Program-made: the position numbers and the translations under genes
The notes under the pieces: generated by a model
Database searches by the model: none
What the model was told of the DNA's origin: nothing
The model's input: the letters and a program-made list of their open reading frames with translations, nothing else
In this document: positions 537 to 54,555 of the stretch, piece by piece
Position numbering within the stretch: position 1 is the first letter of the stretch
How the letters are laid out: each line of letters begins with the position of its first letter
Assembly (NCBI GenBank): GCA_951406725.2
Contig: OX597833.1
Span: 14,508,001-14,572,000 of the forward strand
DNA: 64,000 nucleotides
From: Octopus vulgaris
Lineage: Eukaryota
Direction: 5' to 3'

Positions 537-934
537 AGGAGTGGCTGTGTGGTAAGTAGCTTGCTTGCCTACCAGATGGTTCCGGGTTCAGATCCAACGC
601 GTGGCACTTTGACCAAGTGTCTTGTACTATAGCCTCGGGCCGACCAAAGCCTTGTGAGTAGATTTGGTGGACAGAAACCGTAAGGAGCCTGTCGTGTATA
701 TGTATATATATGTGAGTGTTTGTGTGTCTGTGTATGTCCCCCCAACATCGCTTGACAAACGATGCTGGTGTGTTCATGACCCCCGTAACGTGTGCGTCCC
801 CGTAACGTAGCAGTTCGGCAAAAGAGACCGATAGTACTAGGCTTACAAAGAATAAGTCATGGGGTCGATTTGCTCTACTAAAGGCGGTGCTCCAGCATGG
901 TCGCAGTCAAATGACTGAAACAAGTAAAAGAGTA
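537..934 (+). mobile_element. tRNA-derived SINE family A
   Basis: Head ggagtggctgtgtggtaag (box A) and ggttcagatcc (box B), internal microsatellite, tail gcagtcaaatgactgaaacaagtaaaagagta. Confidence 0.9.
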
Positions 935-1349
935 TGTATTTATTTCCAATATATGGATTTATGAACGCAACGAGATGTTTTTAGATTCTGTCTTCAAATT
1001 TCGTTGAGGTCGACTTTTCATTTTACTCTTTCGGTGCCTGTAAAATATATACACGATTGACATAATCGCCTTACTCTTTACTCCTAAAGAAATTGCTGGA
1101 CGTGTGCCAAAATTTGAAATCAAATATATAAATTCATTATATTTTCAAGTTCCTTTAATTAGCTGTCTGTACATATCATTGCAGTATCGCTGTAATTCTA
1201 ATTTCATTCAGATTTCGTCTGTTAACACGTCTTCAAATATTTTGACAAAAACAATATTATGTGAGAAATATATTACAAGAAATGTATCATTCCTGTAATT
1301 AATATTACCTGCTTATTCAGTTTACAAATCGCATTTGCTATGATAATTT

Positions 1350-1620
1350 TGTTGTGTCTGGGGAGAGTCATTTTCTTTTTGTACCTTATAATGTAACACA
1401 CTCACCGGTGAAATTTCCACTTATTTCTTATTTTTATTTTCCTAAAATTTTCGTTGTGTCTTGCAACCTTTTCAATAGTCTTGAGTCAAGACTATTGAAA
1501 AGGTTGCAAGACGCAACAAAAAATTTAGGAATATATAAAAAAGAAATAAATGGAAATTTCACCGGTGAGTGTGTTACATTATAAGGCACAAAAAGAAAAT
1601 GACTCTCCCCAGACACAACA
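1350..1620. repeat. 271-bp near-perfect palindrome, Penelope-like inverted terminal segment
   Basis: Arms 1350-1484 and 1486-1620 are reverse complements around one G at 1485 (cttga g tcaag), with a few mismatches. Confidence 0.95.
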
Positions 1621-2677
1621 GAATATGCTTCAACACACGAACTCATATAAAGAATCTTACAAGTCAAATCTAAAAACGAATTATGATAATTTTGATGTAA
1701 AGCTATTGACAACTCTGTTGTACATATTTGAATTCTTGTTTCAGTTTTCAATATTTTTTTTCAACGGTGTACACCAACATTATAGTATTCATACTACTGT
1801 CCACGTAGTGTTGTGCACAAAGGAATTACTTCTACATACTCCACTGTGAACCTCTAATTACGAGAAAACCATCAAGTAAATACGTGATATGGAGAATGTA
1901 ATGTATTTATTTCGCCATGAAGCTGGGCTTTATTTCCCAATGTCCCTTCCTACTAGCTGTACATAAATATATACATCACTATAGTGTTACTCTGGATTTG
2001 ATTATTTTCGCATGTATGGAAGCTTCGAGTTAATCGCTTTGACAAATGTAATAGTTTCGTTATAAAGGTGAACCTGTTATTGCTATAATCACTGTAATAG
2101 TTCACTTCCGTGGGATATTTTCAAATCCAATTTCTACTAGCTATTTTCGGTGATTCTATTATTTTTGTGCAGTGTTTTTCTGAGCAAATGCGTCGTAATT
2201 TTACCGTTGCTACTGAGATTGCTCGCTGTATATTACATGCTTTATATGTACTGATATATTTAAACCTTGGAAATAATGAAATCAATTTCGTTGTTGTTTT
2301 AGTCACAAAAGCCTCCACCGTCCATAGACTCCACCATACATCCCACTCCTAGGAACACGATCACTACTGGGGAATATACAGAAACACATTTTGTTTACTT
2401 CAGTATGAAGCTTATTTTCGTATTATTCGTTATTATATATCACCATATTATAACTCTAACCCTGATATTTTCAGTTTTATGAAACTACCTCGGAATCGAT
2501 TTGTGCAGAATAAGTGTTATTTGCAATATCTGCGAAATGTATATTGTTAAGATAAATTTAACACAATATTTCGGTAGAGTATTTTAAACACCAATCTTTC
2601 GATTCTTTCGTAGAAAGGAACTGGATTGTAGATTTTTACAATGAACATCAAATGTATAGGGAGTGGCTGTGTGGATA

Positions 2678-4531: not shown

Positions 4532-4963
4532 GCGGCAGAATTAACGTCCTTTTTCCATTTAATATCTTTTATAATATATAAATGTTTAAGTAATTTTTTA
4601 TTGATAAAAAATCTATTGCATTACTTAAAGAAACGAATAGTAAACTGATAAAAAAATCGCTGAAGTTTTATATATATATATATATTTATATATCCTCGTA
4701 GTTTTATTTGCTGTGAACCAGTAGGCGTTTCTTTGCAAAGAATATTACTTGGAATTAGCCCGAAACATTTCCATGGTTATTGTGAGCGGTGGCTAATTTC
4801 TCTGAGTTGATTATAATCTAATTTTCGATGTTAATTACGTGATTAATTAATTCCTTCGTGATTACTTGCAAAATCTTTGACAAGCAAAACGAGTGTCATT
4901 ATCATCCTGATGATTTGCATGTTTGTGTAGGCGTGTGACTTAGGGCATACGTTATTCAACGCG

Positions 4964-5348
4964 TGGAGGCGCAATGGCCCAGTGGTTAGGGCAGCGGACT
5001 CGTGGTCGTAGGATCGCGGTTTCGATTCCCAGACCGGGCGTTGTGAGTGTTTATTGAGCGAAAACACCTAAAGCTCTACGAGGCTTCGGCAGGGGATGGT
5101 GGTGATCCCTGCTGTACTCTTTCACCACAACTTTCTCTCACTCTTACTTCCTGTTTCTGTTGTACCTGTATTTCAAAGGGCCGGCCTTGTCACTCTCTGT
5201 GTCACGCTGAATATCCCCGGGAACTACGTTAAGGGTACACGTGTCTGTGGAGTGCTCAGCCACTTACACGTTAATTTCACGAGCAGGCTGTTCCGTTGAT
5301 CGGATCAACCGGAACCCTCATCGTCGTAACCGACGGAGTGCTTCCTTC
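4964..5348 (+). mobile_element. tRNA-derived SINE family B, tail 1
   Basis: Head ggaggcgcaatggcccagtggttagggcagcg...ggtttcgattccc; tail gtcgtaaccgacggagtgcttcc; flanking direct repeat tattcaac. Confidence 0.9.
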
Positions 5349-9670: not shown

Positions 9671-9675
9671 GATGC

Positions 9676-9752
9676 CCAGTGAGCACATGGCGTAGTGGTT
9701 ATGAGCGCTGGCTACAAACACAAAAATTCCGAGTTCGACTGCAGGCAGTGAT

Positions 9753-9814
<62 letters not shown>

Positions 9815-9867
9815 CGATGATGATGATCATAATAATAATAATAATAATAATAAAAACGATGATGATG

Positions 9868-9928
<61 letters not shown>

Positions 9929-9939
9929 CGATGATGATG

Positions 9940-10038
<99 letters not shown>

Positions 10039-10084
10039 TAATAATAATAACAATAGCAATAACAATAACAACAACAATAGCAAT

Positions 10085-10149
<65 letters not shown>

Positions 10150-10330
10150 GCAACAACATCGGAAAATACCTTAGGAATGAGAACCCAGGTTCAAAGTTTC
10201 CCCAAGACACCTGATAATGGCTGGAGGATATATCAGCCGAAACGTTGTGTTAACAACAAACAAGATGAGGACAAATATCTATCAAATGTAAATAATGTAA
10301 ATACTGTACGTAATTCCTCATCTCTTAAAT
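9676..10330 (+). mobile_element. Composite tRNA-head/(AAT)n/hammerhead element, copy 1
   Basis: tggcgtagtggtt (box A), gagttcgact (box B), ~390 bp (AAT)n, ccttaggaatgagaacccaggttc, hammerhead-like motif, tail aatgtaaataatgtaaat. Confidence 0.8.
10207..10250 (+). ncRNA. Minimal hammerhead motif, degenerate
   Basis: ACAC-CTGATAAT-GGCTG(loop)CAGCC-GAAACGTT-GTGT; palindromic AACGTT stem III; core reads CTGATAA. Confidence 0.65.
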
Positions 10331-10384
10331 ATATGAATATATTCAGCTGCAATATATCTATAAAGTATAATTTGACTGCACAAA

Positions 10385-10905: not shown

Positions 10906-11286
10906 GGAAGCACTCCGTCGGTTACGACGATGAGGGTTCCGGTTGATCCGACCAACGGAACAGCCTGCTCATGAAATTAACGTGTAAGTGGCTGAGCACT
11001 CCACAGACACGTGTACCCTTAACGTAGTTCTCGGGGATATTCAGCGTGACACAGAGAGTGACAAGGCCGGCCCTTTGAAATACAGGTACAACAGAAACAG
11101 GAAGTAAGAGTGAGAGAAAGTTGTGGTGAAAGAGTACAGCAGGGATCACCACCATCCCCTGCCGGAGCGTCGTGGAGCTTTAGGTGTTTTCGCTCAATAA
11201 ACACTCACAACGCCCGGTCTGGGAATCGAAACCGCGATCCTACGACCGCGAGTCCGCTGCCCTAACCACTGGGTCATTGCGCCTCC
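10906..11286 (-). mobile_element. SINE family B, tail 1
   Basis: Full-length reverse complement; TSD gcttgtaagt. Confidence 0.9.
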
Positions 11287-11594: not shown

Positions 11595-12075
11595 GTCGCT
11601 GCTCTGAGCTGAAACTACAGGGAGAAAAAATCACTATTTAAGCAATGATTTACGTTCCCAGTTCAAATTCCGCCGAGGTCGACTTTGCCTTTCATCCTTT
11701 CGTGGTTGATAAATTAAGTACCAGTTGCGTACTGGGGTCGATCTAATTGACTGATCCTCTTCCACAAAATTTCGGACCTTGTGCCTAGTGTAGAAAAGAA
11801 TATTTAAGCAATGATATCCATGTGTATTATTTATAGACAAGAAGACACGCTTGAAAATGAAATTCAAAAAGCATGTTTAAAAATACAATTCAAACAGCCT
11901 GTTGAAACATATCCTTTAGAACCTCGAGATGCGATCTATTGTTAACAGTTATTTGATCATAGATGTATCGGACACATAAGCATTCAAGAGCGTAATATAG
12001 TCTCAAGAATATCTTGATATAACGTAGGTTTTTTTTTTTAATTAGATCATCATAGATGTATTGAACACGTTAGCC
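11595..12075 (+). repeat. Left arm of ~480-bp inverted duplication
   Basis: Reverse complement of 13479-13957; contains a family C SINE piece with TSD tatttaagcaatgat. Confidence 0.95.
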
Positions 12076-13049
12076 TCGAGATGCGATCTATTGTTAACAG
12101 TTATTTGATCATAGATGCATCGGACACAAGCATTTAAGAGCGTTAAAATTTTCATTTTAAAGTATCAATACCGACCCCTTTTGAACAGACCTCGTATATA
12201 CAGATATGATAAAAACTATCAAAGGCTAAAGAAGAAAGAGCAATGATAAACTTTGAATGAGGTAAACAAATTTATGAGGTGAAGAAAATGTATAATGAAC
12301 TTCTCGTAACAACCTCGTTGAAGGTAATACAAGGAACAATCCTAAAGGATGCTACAAAACTCAATAATATAGGAGCAAAGCAATTAACAGTGGCCATTAG
12401 AATGCATGAGTGGATTGAACGTTTTAGACTTCTGGTCATTTTAAAAATTATTAATGCATGCTTATTAATCTAATCAAAATCACATTAGATCGGCATGGTA
12501 AGGTTATCGTTAACGCGCTTAATGAGAAAACTAAACGGCCCACTATCTTCCCTTCTAGGAAAACACTCGTTCCGTAACATATTAGTTCAATGATTTACAT
12601 AATAAACGCAGCTGCAAGTTTATTCATTTGACATCATTGACTTTATCCCTTGTACATTTGATGCCCTTTTAATGGAAGATGTACAATTTGCACACAAATA
12701 TGCAACTATTCCAATTCTACACAGTTATATCATTTTGCATACCAGAAAATTCATTCTGTATTTCCATGATGGTTTCTAGATAAATCTTAATAGATCTGAA
12801 ATAGTAATCATTTATATGGATCGTTGTGAAGGAGCCGAAGAGTCTAAATTTTAAGGGATTATATCTTAAAGAACCTGCTATCTCAGTTTAACTTTATGAT
12901 TATAGGGTTACAGCGATTTTATTGTAATCTACAATAAAAATGGCTACTAATTTGTCCGACTTCGTAAAGATTTACTTAATGGTTTTAGAACATTTTTTTA
13001 GTCATAAATATTAGGATAGTTATGGGTAGAAGCAACAGTTATATTTTTT

Positions 13050-13240
13050 TTTGCTGGATTCGCAAGAGGGACCGCCATTGGCTATGGATATTATCCAACA
13101 TTCTTGTCTTTAGTCAACTCCTCTCGTTGGCTCGATCTTAAGAACCTGCATTGCGATTGTCTCCTGTGACATTTTAATCATATGTCCGTTGTACCGGAGC
13201 TCTGACCTCTCAATGTGAATAAATAGCATTCTTGATCCGC
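13050..13240 (-). pseudogene. RTE-type LINE ORF C-terminal relic
   Basis: LFIHIERSELRYNGHMIKMSQE..AMQVL..PT, then KTRMLDNI; resembles the RTE LRW.GH..RM / RP..RW.D tail. Confidence 0.55.
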
Positions 13241-13478
13241 TGAGGAAAAAAAGAAGCTACCATAAGTTCAATAAAGAAAGGGTTCGAAAGAATAAGCATA
13301 CAACATCGACCGATTCGCGTGTTGACGAGTGACGATTTCAGATTGCAAAATATGAGCTGAGGAAATTAAAAGCATAGTATTTTTTGAGAGTTCGACATTT
13401 CCCGTTTATTTCTGATTTCTATGCCCCGATGTTTATAATTAGAATTAATGTACATAACACTTCCTTACACATTACATT

Positions 13479-13957
13479 GGCTAACGTGTTCAATACATCT
13501 ATGATGATCTAATTAAAAAAAAAAACGTACGTTATATCAAGATATTCTTGAGACTATATTACGCTCTTGAATGCTTATGTGTCCGATACATCTATGATCA
13601 AATAACTGTTAACGATAGATCGCATCTCGAGGTTCTAAAGAATGTGTTTCAACAGGCTGTTTGAATTGTATTTTTAAACATGCTTTTTGAATTTTATTTT
13701 GAAGCGTGTCTTCTTGTCTATAAATGATACACATAGATATCATTGCTTAAATATTTTTTTCTACACTCGGCACAAGGCCCGAAATTTTGTGGAAGAGGAT
13801 CAGTCAATTAGATCGACCCCAGTACGCAACTGGTACTTAATTTATCAACCACGAAAGGATGAAAGGCAAAGTCGACCTCGGCAGAATTTTAATTGGGAAC
13901 GTAAATCATTGCCCAAATAGTGATTTTTTTTCTGTAATTTCAGCTCAGAGCTGCGAC
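13479..13957 (-). repeat. Right arm of ~480-bp inverted duplication
   Basis: Reverse complement of 11595-12075; ORFs 11634-11867(-) and 13687-13920(+) are near-identical. Confidence 0.95.
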
Positions 13958-14083: not shown

Positions 14084-14453
14084 GGAGGCGCAATGGCCCA
14101 GTGGTTAGGGGCAGCGGACTCGCGGTCGTAGGATCGCGGTTTCGATTCCCAGGCCGGGCGTTGTGAGTGTTTATTGAGCGAAAACACCTAAAGCTCCACG
14201 AGGCTTCGGCAGGGGATGGTGGTGATCCCTGCTGTACTCTTTCACCACAACTTTCTCTCACTCTTACTTCCTGTTTCTCTTGTACCTGTATTTCAAAGGG
14301 CCGGCCTTGTCACTCTCTGTGTCACGCTGAATATCCCCGAGAACTGCGTTAAGGGTACACGTGTCTGTGGAGTGCTCAGCCACTTACACGTTAATTTCAC
14401 GAGCAGGCTGTTCCGTTGATTCGGATCAACCGGAACCCTCATCGTCGTAACCG
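14084..14453 (+). mobile_element. SINE family B, tail 1, 3'-clipped
   Basis: Family match; flanked by a 28-bp direct repeat ccgccgtagtgatatctcgtagtgggaa. Confidence 0.9.
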
Positions 14454-15086
14454 CCGTAGTGATATCTCGTAGTGGGAATGTAAAATTTATTTTCATTCTT
14501 TAGCCATTTTCCTTTTGCTACGTACATATCAGATGGGAGTCGTTAGAATCTAAGCAGACAAGATGACTATAGTTTCAATCTGAAATTTTATCTGTTCTAA
14601 TTTATGAGAGTGAGAAATAAATGGAAACCTTTAGTGCTCATGTGTTTCCTTCGCCTGAATGCATCTGTGTTTATGTCCTTTTTATCTTTTCCGTGTGAGA
14701 AGTACTTGTTTTATAACACAGATTTCAGGAACGTGCTTTCTGTTACGGTGTAACTGGAGAAGAGCTTAATTTAGTCGTAAGATCTGTCTCAAATCGTTCG
14801 TCCAAATATAATGTCTTTAATCTGAACGCAATTTCATGTTACTGGAGATCAATTGAAAGAGACAGGGACATGACAGTGACTGAAATCTCTACACTGGTGT
14901 AATTAAAAAAAAGTATAAAAAGCCAATTTGTGGTATGGCTGTTTGTATGCTGTAAATTTTAGATATATCGATGTGATCTTACTATTTCTACCATAATAAA
15001 CAACCATGAGCAAGACTTTGTAACGATTTTCTTCCTTTGTCATGGTGGTCCAACGAGGAACCCTTTCTTTTAAACATCTGATCACA

Positions 15087-25340: not shown

Positions 25341-25750
25341 AAATTCCGCCGTGGTCGTCTTTGCCTGTCATCCTTTTGGGGTCGAAAAACCTCCCAAAAT
25401 ATTTCCGGTGTTGTGCCTAGAGTAGAAAACAATATATTTGGTACACTTGTTCAAATTCCGCTGATGTCGACTTTGCCTTTCATCTTTTCGGGGTGAATAA
25501 ATTAAGTACCAGTTGTGTATTGGGGTCGATTTAATCGACTGGCGCACCTCTCCAAAAATTTCCGGTCTTGTGCCTAGAGTAGAAAACAATATATTTGGTA
25601 CACTTGTTCAAATTCCGCTGATGTCGACTTTGCCTTTCATCCTTTCGGGTTCGCTAAATTAAGTACCAGTTTTGTACTGGGGTCGATCTAATCTCCAAAC
25701 ATTTCGGGCCTTGTGCCTAGAGTAGAAAAATACATATTTCGTACACTTGT
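25341..25750 (+). mobile_element. Tandem array of three family C SINE fragments
   Basis: Each unit ends gtgcctagagtagaaaa plus flank tatatttggtacacttgt. Confidence 0.85.
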
Positions 25751-28373: not shown

Positions 28374-28962
28374 AGGCAGCGAGCTGGCAGAAACGTTAGC
28401 ACGCCGGGCGAAATGCTTAGCAGCATTTCGTCTGCCGCTACGTTCTGAGTTCAAATTCCGTCGAGGTCGAATTTGCTTTTCAGCCTTTCGGGGTCGATAA
28501 ATTAAGTACCAGTTACGCACTGGGGTCGATATAATCGACTTAATCCGTTTATCTGTCCTTGTTTGTCCCGTTTGTGTTTAGCCCCTTGTGGGTAGTAAAG
28601 AAATAGAAATAGGTATTTCGTCTGCCGTTACGTTCTGAGTTCAAATTCCGCCGAGGTCGACTTTGTCTTTCATCCTTTCGGGTCGATAAATTGAGTACCA
28701 GTTACGCAGTGGGATCGATATAATTGATTTAATCCGATTGTCTGACCTTGTTTGTCCTCTCTTTGTTTAGTCCCTTCTGGTTAGTAAAGAAATAAGTATT
28801 TCGTCTGCCGCTACGTTTTGAGTTCAAATTCAGCAGAGGTCGAATTTGCCTTTCAACCTTTCAGAGTCGATAAATTAAGTACCAGTTGCGTACTGAGGTC
28901 GATGTAATCGACTGCCCTCCCTCCCCCAAAATTTCGGGCCTTGTGACTTGAGTAGAAAAGAA
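28374..28962 (+). mobile_element. Family C SINE trimer
   Basis: One head (ggcagcgagctggcagaaacgttagc) plus three bodies with ttcatcctttcggg(g)tcgataaatt(a/g)agtaccag; one TSD pair taaa(a/g)taatt(a/g)atta. Confidence 0.9.
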
Positions 28963-40220: not shown

Positions 40221-40606
40221 TGGAAGCACTCCGTCGGTTACGACGATGAGTGTTCCGGTTGATCCGAATCAACGGAACAGCCTGCTCGTGAAATTAACGT
40301 GTAAGTGGCTAAGCACTCCACAGACACGTGTACCCTTAACGTAGTTCTCGGGGATATTCAGCGTGACACAGAGAGTGACAAGGCCGGCCCCTTGAAATAC
40401 AGGTACAACAGAAACAGAAAGTAAGTGTGAGAGAGAAAGTTGTGGTGAAAGAGTACAGCAGGGATCACCACCACCCCCTGCCGGAGCCTCGTGGAGCTTT
40501 AGGTGTTTTCGCTCAATAAACACTCACAACGCCCGGTCTGGGAATCGAAACCGCGATCCTACGACCGAGAGTCCGCTGCCCTAACCACTGGGCCATTGCG
40601 CCTCCA
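40221..40606 (-). mobile_element. SINE family B, tail 1
   Basis: Full length; TSD cttcccagtact. Confidence 0.9.
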
Positions 40607-41039
40607 CTTCCCAGTACTATGGTATCATTCAATAATGTTTGTACCACCGTTGTGTACTGGTGCATTTAAGTCTGGAAAAATTTAATATTAAATATGTGGC
40701 CCTTAACAAAGACGTGGGTGTCGAATATCAATACGATCCTTGCGACCTTCTAGCTTCAACTAAGTGAAACCTCCCTTGCTTCAGTGTTCATACAGTACCA
40801 TTCAATACGAGTTTTCTTGTAAGCTATCGTTCATACTGTTTATCAGTCTTATGTCGCATTCAGGGTTGTTTGTTTAATATACGTCTTTTTGATTTAACTA
40901 TAAGAATGTGTTTACAAGAAGAGTGTCTGTAAAATGTCATGTAATCGTTCAATGTTCTTGGAAAAGATCTGTAGTAGGGCAGCAGGTGTGTTTTTTATTT
41001 AAATATGATAATTAACTCTGTTCCAACGTTATCTCAGTA

Positions 41040-50532: not shown

Positions 50533-51035
50533 GCATACATACACAGCCCCCCTCCCACATATATATATGATATATATCTAACATACAAGATAAAGTCCTC
50601 ATGTTTTGAAATTGTCTTGTCTTCCCGACAATACAACGTAAACAGAAGCCCCTTATCTCGAGTGAATTTAACCGTGATCCTTCTACATAACACTTAATTT
50701 GTCTATCTTCCGCATATAATCTCTATGGTGTAGTTGATTAATTGAAAAATTTAATGGTGTGAAACTAAACTTTATTTCTCCTACATTCCGTCACTTTCCC
50801 TGCAATGCCTATGGCCGGAGTGAAAATGAATACTTGACCGCACAATTTGTAACTTACAATTTATCATCAAACCTCTATACAATTCCAAAGGTCAGCCAGC
50901 ATATAAACATTAATAACTGCCCATCAACCCTTCCGATATTACTCTCCGATAAGACTTAATATTCCCCTCTCCCTTGCCTTTTCTTTTCTTGCCTTCTTTT
51001 CCCATTAACTATTTACCGTGCTTACTCAAATTTTC

Positions 51036-51489
51036 AACGGATTTTCTCAAATATTCTGAACAATTGGTCACCAATACCACACCTGAATATTAGAAACCAT
51101 TATCATTGCCCTTTTAGCTCAGGTGTTTTTTAGAACACCTAGAATCTTGCATGAGTAGAGGGCTTGCTACTTGTACCCCAAGACACAATACTATTTCTCC
51201 TCTTCAAGTATCTAGTACTTGTCTGATAATCTTAGCTGTACATTATTTACATTATTTACATCAACGGATTTTCTCAAATATTCTGAACAATTGGTCACCA
51301 ATGCCACAGCTGAATATTAGAAACCATTATCATTGCCCTTTTAGCTCAGGTGTTTTTTAGAACACCTAGAATCTTGCATGAGTAGAGGGCTTGCTATTTG
51401 TAGCCTACGGCACAATGCTATTTCTCCTCTTCAAGTATCTAGTTCTTGTCTGATAATCCTAGCTGTACATTATTTACATTATTTACATT
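51036..51489 (+). repeat. ~227-bp tandem duplication
   Basis: 51036-51262 matches 51263-51489. Confidence 0.95.
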
Positions 51490-52141
51490 TGACGGATATT
51501 TGTCCTTATCTTGTTTGTTGTTAACACAACGTTTCCGCTGATATACCCTCGGGCCTTTATCAGGTGTCTTGGGCAAATGTCGAACCTGGGTTCTCATTCC
51601 CAAGGTATTTTTCAATGTTATTATTACTATTATTGTGGAGGCGCAATGGCCCAGTGGTTAGGGCAGCGGGCTCGCGGTCGTAGGATCGCGGTTTCGATTC
51701 CCAGACCAGGCATTGTGAGTGTTTATTGAGCGAAAACACCTAAAAGCTCCACGAGGCTCCGACAGGGGATGGTGGTGAACCCTGCTGTACTCTTTCACCA
51801 CAACTTTCTCTCACTCTTACTTCCTGTTTCTGTTGTACCTGTATTTCAAAGGGCCGGCCTTGTCACTCTCTGTGTCACCGAGAACTACGTTAAGGGTACA
51901 CGTGTCTGTGGAGTGCTCAGCCACTTGCACGTTAATTTCATGAGCAAGCTGTTCCGTTGATCGTATCAGCTGGGACCCTCATCGTCGCAACCGACGGAGT
52001 GCTCCTACTATTATTATTATTATTATTATCATTATTATCATTATTATTATTATTAGTAAGGTCACTGCCTGGAATCGAGCTCGGCATCTTGGGGGTGATT
52101 AGTAGCCCGCGCTCTTAACCATTTCGCCATATGCCCGTGGG
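51466..52141 (-). mobile_element. Composite tRNA-head/(AAT)n/hammerhead element, copy 2, split by a SINE
   Basis: Head at 52058-52141; hammerhead-like ACAC-CTGATAAA-GGCCC..CAGCG-GAAACGTT-GTGT at 51524-51567; same tail as copy 1. Confidence 0.8.
51636..52006 (+). mobile_element. SINE family B, tail 1, nested
   Basis: Family match inside the (ATT)n tract. Confidence 0.9.
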
Positions 52142-52396
52142 TTTTTTCTTTTTTTTTAAATGGTTTTTATACAGGATTGTATGACAAAAAATTAAATATT
52201 TCCTTCCTTTCACCTTCCTCTTTTTTTTATTTGTTTTGTGAATGATTTTATAATGGTCAATAAAATAAAGGAATATAAATAATATCTTTTTTAATGCCGG
52301 CAGAAAAATATATAAATAAAAAAACCACACCCAAAATTTATTTCATCTTGGTGGTGGAATAAGCAGTGAAATATCTTGAAAATAAGGAAGAAAAAG

Positions 52397-52570
52397 TATA
52401 TGGCGTAGTGGTTAAGAGCGCGAGCTACTAATCCCAAAATTCCGCGATCGATTCCAGGCAGTGACCTGAATAATAATACTAATAATAATAATAATAGAAA
52501 AAATAATAATAACAACCTCTAAAAATGCCTTAGGAATGAGAACCCTTGTTCGAAATCTGCCAACATCTAC
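52397..52570 (+). mobile_element. Composite tRNA-head/(AAT)n element, copy 3, truncated before the hammerhead
   Basis: tggcgtagtggttaagagcgcgagctactaa..tcgattccaggcagtgacctga(aat)n..ccttaggaatgagaaccc. Confidence 0.8.
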
Positions 52571-53879: not shown

Positions 53880-54555
53880 CAATGTAGGTGTATAATGGAT
53901 ATAGTGGTTCGAATCTCAAACCGGGTGATAATGGTGTGTTTATGAGCGAAAAACCTGAGCTCCACGTGGCCCGGCAGAAGGCAATGGCGAACTTCTGCTG
54001 ACTCTTTCGCCATAACTTTCTCTCACTGGAGGCGCAATGGCCCAGTGGTTTGGGCAGCGAACTCGCGGTCGGAGGATCGCGGTTTCGATTCCCAGACCGG
54101 GCATTGTGAGTTTTTATTGAGCGAAAACACCTAAAGCTCCACGAGGCTCCGGCAGGGGATGGTGGTGATCCCTGCTGTACTCTTTCACCACAACTTTCTC
54201 TCGCTCTTTCTTCCTGTTTCTCTTGTACCTGTATTTCAAAGGGCTAGCCTTGTCACTCTCTGTGTCACGCTGAATCTCCTCCAGAACTACGTTAAGGGTA
54301 CACGTGTCTGTGGAGTGCTCAGCCACTTGCACGTTAATATCACGAGCAAGCTGTTCCGTTGATCGTATCAGCTGGGACCCTCATCGTCGCAACCGACGGA
54401 GTGCTCCTAACTTTTTCTCACTCTTTCCTCTTCTATCTAGCATCTCACATGCGACGGACCGGCGTCGATTCCACGTGGGGAACCTATACACTAATGATAC
54501 CGGAAAACCGGCCCTTCTGACCCAGGCATGGCTGGAGAAGGAACACACAACAACA
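53880..54555 (+). mobile_element. SINE family D, split by a family B SINE
   Basis: Halves 53880-54027 and 54408-54555. Confidence 0.8.
54028..54408 (+). mobile_element. SINE family B, tail 1, nested
   Basis: TSD taacttt(c/t)tctcact. Confidence 0.9.

What the first reader, a model, noticed from the sequence alone, without database searches (positions are those of the whole stretch)
9676..10330. Composite element: Pol III tRNA head + (AAT)n spacer + minimal hammerhead + tail (three copies)
Seen: the same module order at 9676-10330(+), 51466-52141(-) and, truncated, 52397-52570(+). It comprises a box A/box B tRNA-like head, a variable (AAT)n tract, the linker ccttaggaatgagaacccaggttc, ACAC-CTGATAA(T/A)-stem II-GAAACGTT-GTGT, and the tail (aatgtaaat)n. 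Established: Schistosoma Sm-alpha joins a tRNA-type promoter to a hammerhead, and minimal hammerheads with palindromic stem III are PLE hallmarks. Inference: a SINE/retrozyme hybrid transcribed by Pol III, processed by a ribozyme and mobilised by a PLE rather than a LINE. I do not know of a description in cephalopods. Caveat: both local cores read CTGATAA rather than CTGATGA, so these copies are probably inactive.
Basis: partly seen in the sequence, partly recalled or inferred. Interest (0 to 1): 0.85.

Follow-up and report, generated by a model that had tools for sequence, protein, structure and literature searches.

The report
Penelope retrotransposon carrying a tRNA promoter

Summary
The modules are real, but they are not a free-standing SINE/retrozyme. 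They are the pseudo-LTR of a Penelope/Poseidon-type retrotransposon. In 29 of 30 endonuclease-selected loci the RT + GIY-YIG ORF runs straight into the head, and the ORF starts inside the linker and reads through the hammerhead. The family core is CTGANGA (G8 in 225 of 245 copies); the two window cores are mutants, and copy 3 has no hammerhead. Insertions show PLE hallmarks: two 3' ends and inverted pairs with target duplications. Two things are unusual. The pLTR holds a tRNA-Arg-like box A/B head, and 26 of 30 head-anchored matches begin at it, as SINEs do. The 2.8-kb sense strand has no TTTT Pol III terminator (about 5 expected), unlike related PLEs. Pol III activity is inferred only: RNA-seq gave no support, and a hairpin at the head start is a rival cause of the 5' pile-up. 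Ribozyme processing is probably dispensable. Verdict: new variant of a known kind.

The parts
9674..9756 (+). Copy 1 tRNA-Arg-like head; box A 9688-9698, box B (mutated) 9733-9742
   Evidence: sequence; 86% to family head; family head vs 20 tRNA loci, best tRNA-Arg z=7.7
9756..10149 (+). Copy 1 expanded (AAT)n/(AAC)n tract
   Evidence: TRF, 131 copies of period 3
10155..10205 (+). Copy 1 linker; holds the ATG (10177) that opens the PLE ORF in long copies
10206..10251 (+). Copy 1 minimal type I hammerhead: stem I 10206-10210/10247-10251, core 10211-10217 with G8A, stem II 10219-10223/10234-10238, palindromic stem III; predicted cut after 10246
   Evidence: sequence and fold; family core CTGANGA
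10252..10332 (+). Copy 1 3' part: 9-nt repeats plus most of the ~30-nt PLE 'tail' (the 5' coding region of the PLE ORF)
52059..52141 (-). Copy 2 tRNA-like head, starting at family position +2
   Evidence: 90% to family head
52009..52055 (-). Copy 2 (AAT)n tract, 5' part
   Evidence: TRF
51635..52003 (+). Unrelated ~370-nt tRNA-headed SINE inserted in reverse into the (AAT)n tract of copy 2; not part of the element
   Evidence: 15 other full or partial matches in the window, 74-96% identity; AAT on both sides
51465..51620 (-). Copy 2 linker, hammerhead (core starts 51563; G8A and broken stem II) and short-type 3' end without the 30-nt tail
52398..52556 (+). Copy 3: head (from +11), short (AAT)n and linker; no hammerhead, no tail

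Best explanation
The window copies are short, decayed insertions of the pseudo-LTR of a Penelope/Poseidon-type retrotransposon whose pLTR contains a captured tRNA-Arg-like box A/B head, and most such short copies likely come from RNA polymerase III transcripts that start at that head. Shown: the unit is ORF (RT + GIY-YIG) - stop - about 30 nt - head - (AAT)n - linker with ATG - hammerhead - tail - next ORF; short copies start at the head and end at one of two PLE-type 3' ends; inverted pairs carry target duplications. Inferred: TFIIIC/Pol III fires from the head; from a downstream pLTR or a solo copy this gives a ~300-nt non-coding RNA that the PLE protein binds in its tail region, reverse-transcribes from two internal start sites at nicks on both target strands, and inserts, often as a head-to-head pair. 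Inferred, weaker: from an upstream pLTR the same promoter can also read the 2.8-kb TTTT-free ORF. The hammerhead is an inherited, dimer- or protein-dependent PLE ribozyme whose cleavage is probably not needed to mobilise the short RNA.
For: PLE identity: RT motifs and GIY-YIG/CCHH in loci, RVT_1 E=2.8e-10, 818-aa single ORF in the majority sequence of 101 fragments. Head is part of the PLE: 29 of 30 EN-selected loci and 30 of 30 loci anchored just upstream of the head run into it; linker-hammerhead-tail runs into the ORF 5' end in several of 25 loci. ORF through the hammerhead is conserved in an unrelated 861-aa homologue (40% over 82 aa, E=4e-16). PLE insertion signature: 3' ends at about +117-131 and +161/162 from the ATG; head-to-head partner in 35 of 60 loci, 32 of 35 with one long-tail and one short arm; direct repeats >=7 nt outside 17 of 37 pairs vs 5.6% of mismatched pairs; matches PMC11167929 and PMC8557442. 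Discrete 5' start: 26 of 30 head-anchored matches stop within 8 nt upstream of the anchor, 4 run >=58 nt, none between, while copies past the head extend a median 455 nt; exact 16-base counts 5,290 at the head vs 1,261 just upstream. Box A lies 14 nt after the start (sequence). TTTT: 0 in 2,788 nt (P0 0.0065 base shuffle, 0.023 synonymous shuffle); 13 vs 60 expected in 12 long natural copies; two control families in this genome 13 vs 7.6 and 3 vs 2.6; 41 related PLE ORFs >=1.5 kb from other organisms median obs/exp 1.39, and 0 of 50 loci with expectation >=3 have none.
Against: RNA-seq reads of a related organism lie equally on both strands, follow the DNA depth profile and show no pile-up of ends at the head start or the predicted cut (library strandedness and small-RNA recovery unknown). 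About 10 of the 24 short family starts are hairpin-type junctions at a 5-bp palindrome at +1 (counted by eye), so fold-back contributes to the pile-up. Head-anchored and hammerhead-pattern samples come from the first 9 Mb and 4 Mb of one contig, where short copies are enriched. Subfamily variants (core N7, head position 70) occur in both long and short copies, so a separate SINE lineage is not shown. TTTT absence is one lineage: the 12 copies are not independent, a first-order Markov null gives P0 0.074, and GGGG is also absent (significant against no null tested by codon shuffle, P 0.30). 3 copies with an upstream pLTR extend 5' of the upstream head (L151, L154, L158) and only 1 starts at it (L152). 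The one PLE promoter mapped, in D. virilis, resembles Pol II LINE promoters (PMC2377424).
Confidence: 0.66

Rival explanations
1. All short copies are ordinary 5'-truncated products of a Pol II-transcribed PLE. The tRNA-like head is a fossil SINE or tRNA insertion carried in the 3' UTR, and the pile-up at +1 comes from cDNA fold-back at the small palindrome there.
For: Heavy 5' truncation is normal for PLEs and is seen along this ORF; about 10 of 24 starts are hairpin-type; long and short copies share subfamily variants; no strand or end signal in RNA-seq; D. virilis promoter is Pol II-like.
Against: About 14 of 24 starts at +1 to +8 are not hairpin junctions, including copies with no inverted partner; truncation elsewhere is about 0.2% per nt; it does not explain intact boxes A and B at SINE-like spacing or the TTTT-free sense strand.
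Confidence: 0.26
2. One reading: an independent SINE/retrozyme hybrid, transcribed by Pol III and cut to unit length by its hammerhead (Sm-alpha-like), mobilised in trans by a PLE.
For: Head and hammerhead linked in 27 of 30 head-anchored loci; catalytic core conserved, with variation concentrated at the free N7 position; Sm-alpha precedent (review PMC6765202).
Against: Every module also lies in the autonomous PLE; same-strand tandem units in only 1 of 60 loci; no 3' ends at the predicted cut (+70): 255 copies end mostly at +117-131 or +161/162 (which counted only hits of 90 nt or more and so would miss very short ones); cleavage dispensable for PLE insertion in vitro.
Confidence: 0.08

Closest known systems
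Penelope/Poseidon-clade PLEs, e.g. Anolis PAc (PMC11167929) and PLE minimal hammerheads (PMC4209133)
   Same: Single RT + C-terminal GIY-YIG ORF, partial-tandem pLTRs, minimal type I hammerhead overlapping the ORF start, two RT start sites giving a 30-40-nt tail, inverted 5'-truncated partner copies.
   Different: pLTR contains a tRNA-Arg-like box A/B head and (AAT)n; most copies start at that head; sense strand lacks TTTT; ATG lies 34 nt upstream of the core rather than at stem II.
Schistosoma Sm-alpha (known to me through review PMC6765202 and PMC8490949 passages; original paper not read)
   Same: Pol III-type promoter followed by a type I hammerhead in a short dispersed repeat.
   Different: Sm-alpha is described as tandem, with cleavage releasing monomers; here copies are solo or inverted, keep sequence beyond the cut, and the autonomous parent with the same head is present.
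TRIMp3 elements Cassandra, Helenus, Ajax (PMC10886601)
   Same: Small-RNA-derived Pol III promoter embedded in a terminal repeat, plausibly by SINE insertion.
   Different: Those are non-autonomous LTR elements, and the paper argues their autonomous partners must use Pol II; here the promoter-like head sits in the terminal repeat of a protein-coding PLE.
Non-LTR retrozymes (PMC7229834; bioRxiv 10.64898/2026.07.22.740005)
   Same: Non-coding, pLTR-derived, hammerhead-bearing, PLE-mobilised.
   Different: Defined by tandem hammerhead-bearing units and circular RNAs; not met here (1 of 60 loci); no tRNA or Pol III mention in the preprint's main text.
Octopus tRNA SINEs OR1/OR2/OK (Ohshima and Okada 1994; not read, Arg/Lys origin recalled)
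   Same: tRNA-derived heads in the same genus; an Arg-like head.
   Different: OR1 is a CORE-SINE (PMC4824008); this element has no such body and ends in a PLE tail. Relation of the heads was not tested.

Membership tests
EN+ PLE, Penelope/Poseidon type | Single ORF with RT and C-terminal GIY-YIG endonuclease | tested here: met
   in other genomic copies, not in the window. Pfam does not name the GIY-YIG part; it is read from motifs. Clade name rests on domain order and motifs; no tree was built.
EN+ PLE, Penelope/Poseidon type | Partial-tandem pLTR upstream of the ORF | tested here: met
   (L142, L144, L146, L152, L154, L155, L162 among 25 loci)
EN+ PLE, Penelope/Poseidon type | 30-40-nt tail at one end; inverted 5'-truncated partner | tested here: met
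   (32 of 35 pairs asymmetric)
Minimal type I hammerhead | Core CUGANGA...GAAA...UH, stems I and II, palindromic stem III | tested here: met
   family: G8 225 of 245, stems fold; same architecture with other stem II pairs in related PLEs (12 shown). Window copies fail at G8.
Minimal type I hammerhead | Stem covariation within the family | tested here: inconclusive
   copies are about 7% from one consensus and decay neutrally (CpG loss); no compensatory pairs expected or seen
Minimal type I hammerhead | Self-cleavage | not testable with these tools
   no RNA ends at the predicted site in fragmented RNA-seq, which is weak
tRNA-derived SINE (short form) | tRNA-derived head with boxes A and B | tested here: met
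   (tRNA-Arg, z 7.7 and 7.6, among 20 tRNA loci of 6 amino-acid types only); not called by Rfam or ARAGORN
tRNA-derived SINE (short form) | Discrete 5' start at the head; short and non-coding; 3' end shared with an autonomous partner | tested here: met
tRNA-derived SINE (short form) | Transcription by Pol III | not testable with these tools
   indirect only (start position, TTTT absence); RNA-seq uninformative
tRNA-derived SINE (short form) | Propagation from short master copies independent of the long element | tested here: inconclusive
   variants shared by long and short copies, with frequency skews (P 0.003-0.009) in biased samples
Non-LTR retrozyme | Head-to-tail tandem units each with a hammerhead | tested here: not met
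   1 of 60 loci
Non-LTR retrozyme | Abundant circular RNA | not testable with these tools
   no suitable library

The most novel reading that the evidence does not exclude
An autonomous, protein-coding retrotransposon that switched to RNA polymerase III: a Penelope-type element captured a tRNA-Arg promoter in its pLTR, purged every TTTT terminator from its 2.8-kb sense strand, and from the same promoter produces a PLE-mobilised SINE, a snapshot of SINE birth with the parent still attached.
Probability: 0.38. Interest if true: 0.85.

Novelty: new variant of a known kind. Interest (0 to 1): 0.63.

Why it matters
SINEs are thought to arise when a tRNA-derived promoter lands beside the 3' end of an autonomous retroelement; here parent and short derivative share the head and can be compared directly, and the partner is a PLE rather than a LINE. 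Protein-coding retrotransposons are assumed to use Pol II (or Pol I co-transcription); PMC10886601 argues Pol III is too poorly processive for autonomous elements. A TTTT-free 2.8-kb ORF behind boxes A and B makes that assumption testable with one reporter construct, and raises the question of how an uncapped RNA with a hammerhead inside its ORF would be translated. Practically, roughly 18,000 hammerhead-bearing copies (rough) in an octopus genome are likely split between 'SINE' and 'Penelope' labels in annotations.

Tried and rejected
Rfam and ARAGORN: no tRNA or hammerhead call in the window, 5 family loci, or 38 control loci; the miRNA hits are microsatellites. Intron idea: a 47-nt GT...AG stretch in the tail could join an ATG in the hammerhead core to the ORF, but 0 of 130 copies lacked it and the unspliced frame is conserved in P0154, so it is not needed; the RNA reference did not span that junction. 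A first junction consensus went out of frame through an alignment slip; natural copies are in frame (4 of 6 shown). Sequencing runs: no RNA holder listed on record; raw RNA of a related organism laid instead, uninformative on start sites. DNA for P0154 not found; viral contigs none. Box A/B scan found 0 of 80 related PLE loci, but the pattern fires in 22 of 30 head-anchored loci and only 1 of 12 long copies and many contigs have short flanks, so this is a weak negative. Free dimer folding did not give the hammerhead dimer as minimum-energy form. One row of the alignment (L138) was on the wrong strand and is ignored. PDB holds only distant RTs. Earlier findings: none. Repbase, Dfam and the octopus library deposited with PMC13282606 could not be consulted.

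Full report
Observation. Copy 1 (9674-10332, +) has the stated order of head, (AAT)n, linker, hammerhead and tail. Copy 2 (52141-51465, -) has it too, but a different ~370-nt SINE sits inverted in its (AAT)n tract (51635-52003; 15 other full or partial matches in the window). Copy 3 (52398-52556, +) stops after the linker and has no hammerhead. The window lies in a 2.8-Gb genome; the closest named protein of the family is from Octopus sinensis, so I infer an octopus. A 34-nt hammerhead pattern has 4,698 exact matches and 0 reversed-control matches; 44 of 173 sampled hammerhead regions match it exactly, giving roughly 18,000 copies (the sample was chosen by similarity, so this may be low).

Hammerhead. 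Of the first 100 listed matches 67 read CTGATGA, 26 CTGAAGA, 3 CTGACGA and 4 lack G8 (my tally). Over 255 copies G8 is kept in 225 of 245 and the free N7 is T 196, A 42, C 4. Stems I and II fold, with an unpaired base before stem II and a palindromic stem III, as described for PLE minimal hammerheads (PMC4209133, parts 1-2 of 4 read). Related PLEs from other organisms show the same core with different stem II pairs (25 of 80 loci have such a motif downstream; 12 shown). Within the family there is only neutral decay, with CpG loss, so covariation cannot be judged. Both window cores are G8A mutants and copy 2 also has a broken stem II. Rfam and ARAGORN call nothing here.

What it belongs to. Two of the first 30 loci had endonuclease-like coding sequence just upstream of the head. 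Searching with it, 29 of 30 loci run from the ORF end into the head; the other joins ORF to tail without it. All 30 loci anchored on 16 bases just upstream of the head continue into it. [quoted passage not shown] The majority sequence of 101 fragments (median 93% identity) has one ORF of 818 aa from the linker ATG (it lacks about 18 codons near the start that natural copies have). That ORF reads through the hammerhead, and an unrelated 861-aa homologue keeps the same N-terminal stretch. So the finding is the pLTR of a Penelope/Poseidon-type element; no ORF sequence lies in the window. The clade name rests on domain order and motifs, not a tree.

Insertion signature. 3' ends cluster at +117-131 and +161/162 from the ATG. 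35 of 60 loci have a head-to-head partner and 32 of those 35 pair a long-tail arm with a short arm. Outer flanks share direct repeats of 7 nt or more in 17 of 37 pairs against 5.6% of mismatched pairs, so a pair is one insertion. This fits the in vitro work on the Anolis Poseidon element: both strands nicked and extended, two internal RT starts defining the tail, hammerhead cleavage not needed (PMC11167929, parts 1-2 of 4), and the structures in PMC8557442 (passages). Copies keep 50-90 nt beyond the predicted cut, so their template was uncut or re-joined. Same-strand tandem units occur in 1 of 60 loci, against a retrozyme.

The head. It aligns best with two tRNA-Arg loci (z 7.7, 7.6) among 20 tRNA loci of six amino-acid types (not a full tRNA set). 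Box A starts 14 nt after the element start. 26 of 30 head-anchored matches stop within 8 nt upstream of the anchor, 4 run 58 nt or more into the PLE, none between (two of the 26, L183 and L194, lack a tail and may be another SINE; two are arms of one insertion). Copies that pass the head extend a median 455 nt (some loci look duplicated), about 0.2% stops per nt, so about 2% would be expected in 8 nt. Genome-wide exact counts drop from 5,290 to 1,261 across 25 nt; summed contig depth in two other organisms steps about 3-fold at the same place (rough). In the hammerhead-pattern set 22 of 30 loci have a head, all starting at 0 to +22, and none reach the ORF (these come from 4 Mb of one contig). 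A tail lies downstream of 27 of 30 and 24 of 29 heads in two sets (one miss, L079, has a tail). Against a pure Pol III reading: a 5-bp palindrome sits at +1 and about 10 of 24 starts are fold-back junctions, and subfamily variants are shared by long and short copies.

TTTT. The sense strand has 0 runs of four T in 2,788 nt; expectation 5.0 by base shuffle (P0 0.0065), 2.9 by synonymous shuffle (0.023), 2.7 by first-order Markov (0.074). GGGG is also absent but not significantly under the codon shuffle (P 0.30). Twelve long natural copies have 13 against 60 expected and no five-T run (not independent). Controls: another PLE family in this genome 13 vs 7.6, a Dong/R4-like LINE 3 vs 2.6 (one 1.3-kb ORF part of the LINE has 0 vs 0.8); 41 related PLE ORFs of 1.5 kb or more from metagenome contigs 377 vs 258, median ratio 1.39, one of the 41 with none (expected 1.3), and 0 of 50 loci with expectation 3 or more have none. 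That T4 stops metazoan Pol III is established knowledge, not from a call. This is one lineage, so it is suggestive (about P 0.001-0.05 by null), not proof. Against: 3 copies extend 5' of the upstream head and only 1 starts at it, which needs tandem masters or insertion into the element's own pLTR; the D. virilis promoter is Pol II-like (PMC2377424, passages); and an uncapped RNA is a poor mRNA.

Expression. No listed holder was on record as RNA. Raw RNA-seq of a related organism covered the element on both strands equally, followed DNA depth and gave no end pile-up at the head or cut site, as expected from copies inside host transcripts. It neither supports nor excludes a germ-line Pol III RNA.

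Literature. Ten searches listed no paper on a PLE with a tRNA-derived pLTR or on this octopus element; for most hits I saw only listings. Read in part: PMC13282606 (parts 1-2 of 3; counts SINE and Penelope families, no such description; supplement and deposited library not seen), bioRxiv 10.64898/2026.07.22.740005 (parts 1-2 of 5 and term search; supplements closed), passages of PMC10886601, PMC6765202, PMC8490949, PMC7229834, PMC5680766, PMC4824008, PMC8967140, PMC6962438. The Sm-alpha, dimer-cleavage and 1994 octopus SINE papers were not read. Repbase and Dfam were not available, so the family may already carry a name.

Verdict. That this is a PLE pLTR is near certain. That the short copies come from a captured Pol III promoter is likely (about 0.66); that the full element is a Pol III unit is open (about 0.38). 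New variant of a known kind; interest 0.63.

Noticed in passing
window 51635-52003 (+) and 4963-5342, 10909-11286, 14084-14461, 40225-40607, 54027-54409 and others: A second, abundant ~380-nt tRNA-headed SINE; one copy is nested in the (AAT)n tract of copy 2. Family not named.
   Followed up: partly
L053 1833-3269; L005, L026, L030, L124 upstream of the linker: Dong/R4-like LINEs insert into the (AAT)n tract of this element; the L053 family is very young (99-100% identity in the top 40). The label Dong/R4 is from recalled motifs.
   Followed up: partly
L156 2280-2600; L226-L255: A second, older PLE family in the genome with normal TTTT content and no obvious tRNA head at its 3' end.
   Followed up: partly
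window 51034-51488: 227-bp tandem duplication that includes the last 24-36 nt of copy 2 and its flank.
   Followed up: no
window 52142-52397: Copies 2 and 3 face head to head across a 256-nt AT-rich spacer; possibly one inverted-pair insertion later interrupted.
   Followed up: no
G000:C1 first 5 Mb: Short head-start copies are dense at the start of contig C1 (23 matches) while ORF-bearing copies are not (1 match).
   Followed up: no
window 1346-1624 and 11595-13957: A 279-nt palindrome and a pair of ~480-nt inverted repeats (96% identity), possibly DNA transposon ends.
   Followed up: no
window 537-934 and 8 or more other places; 25389-25693; 28425-28913: Two further dispersed SINE-like repeat families, one forming short tandem arrays.
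   Followed up: no
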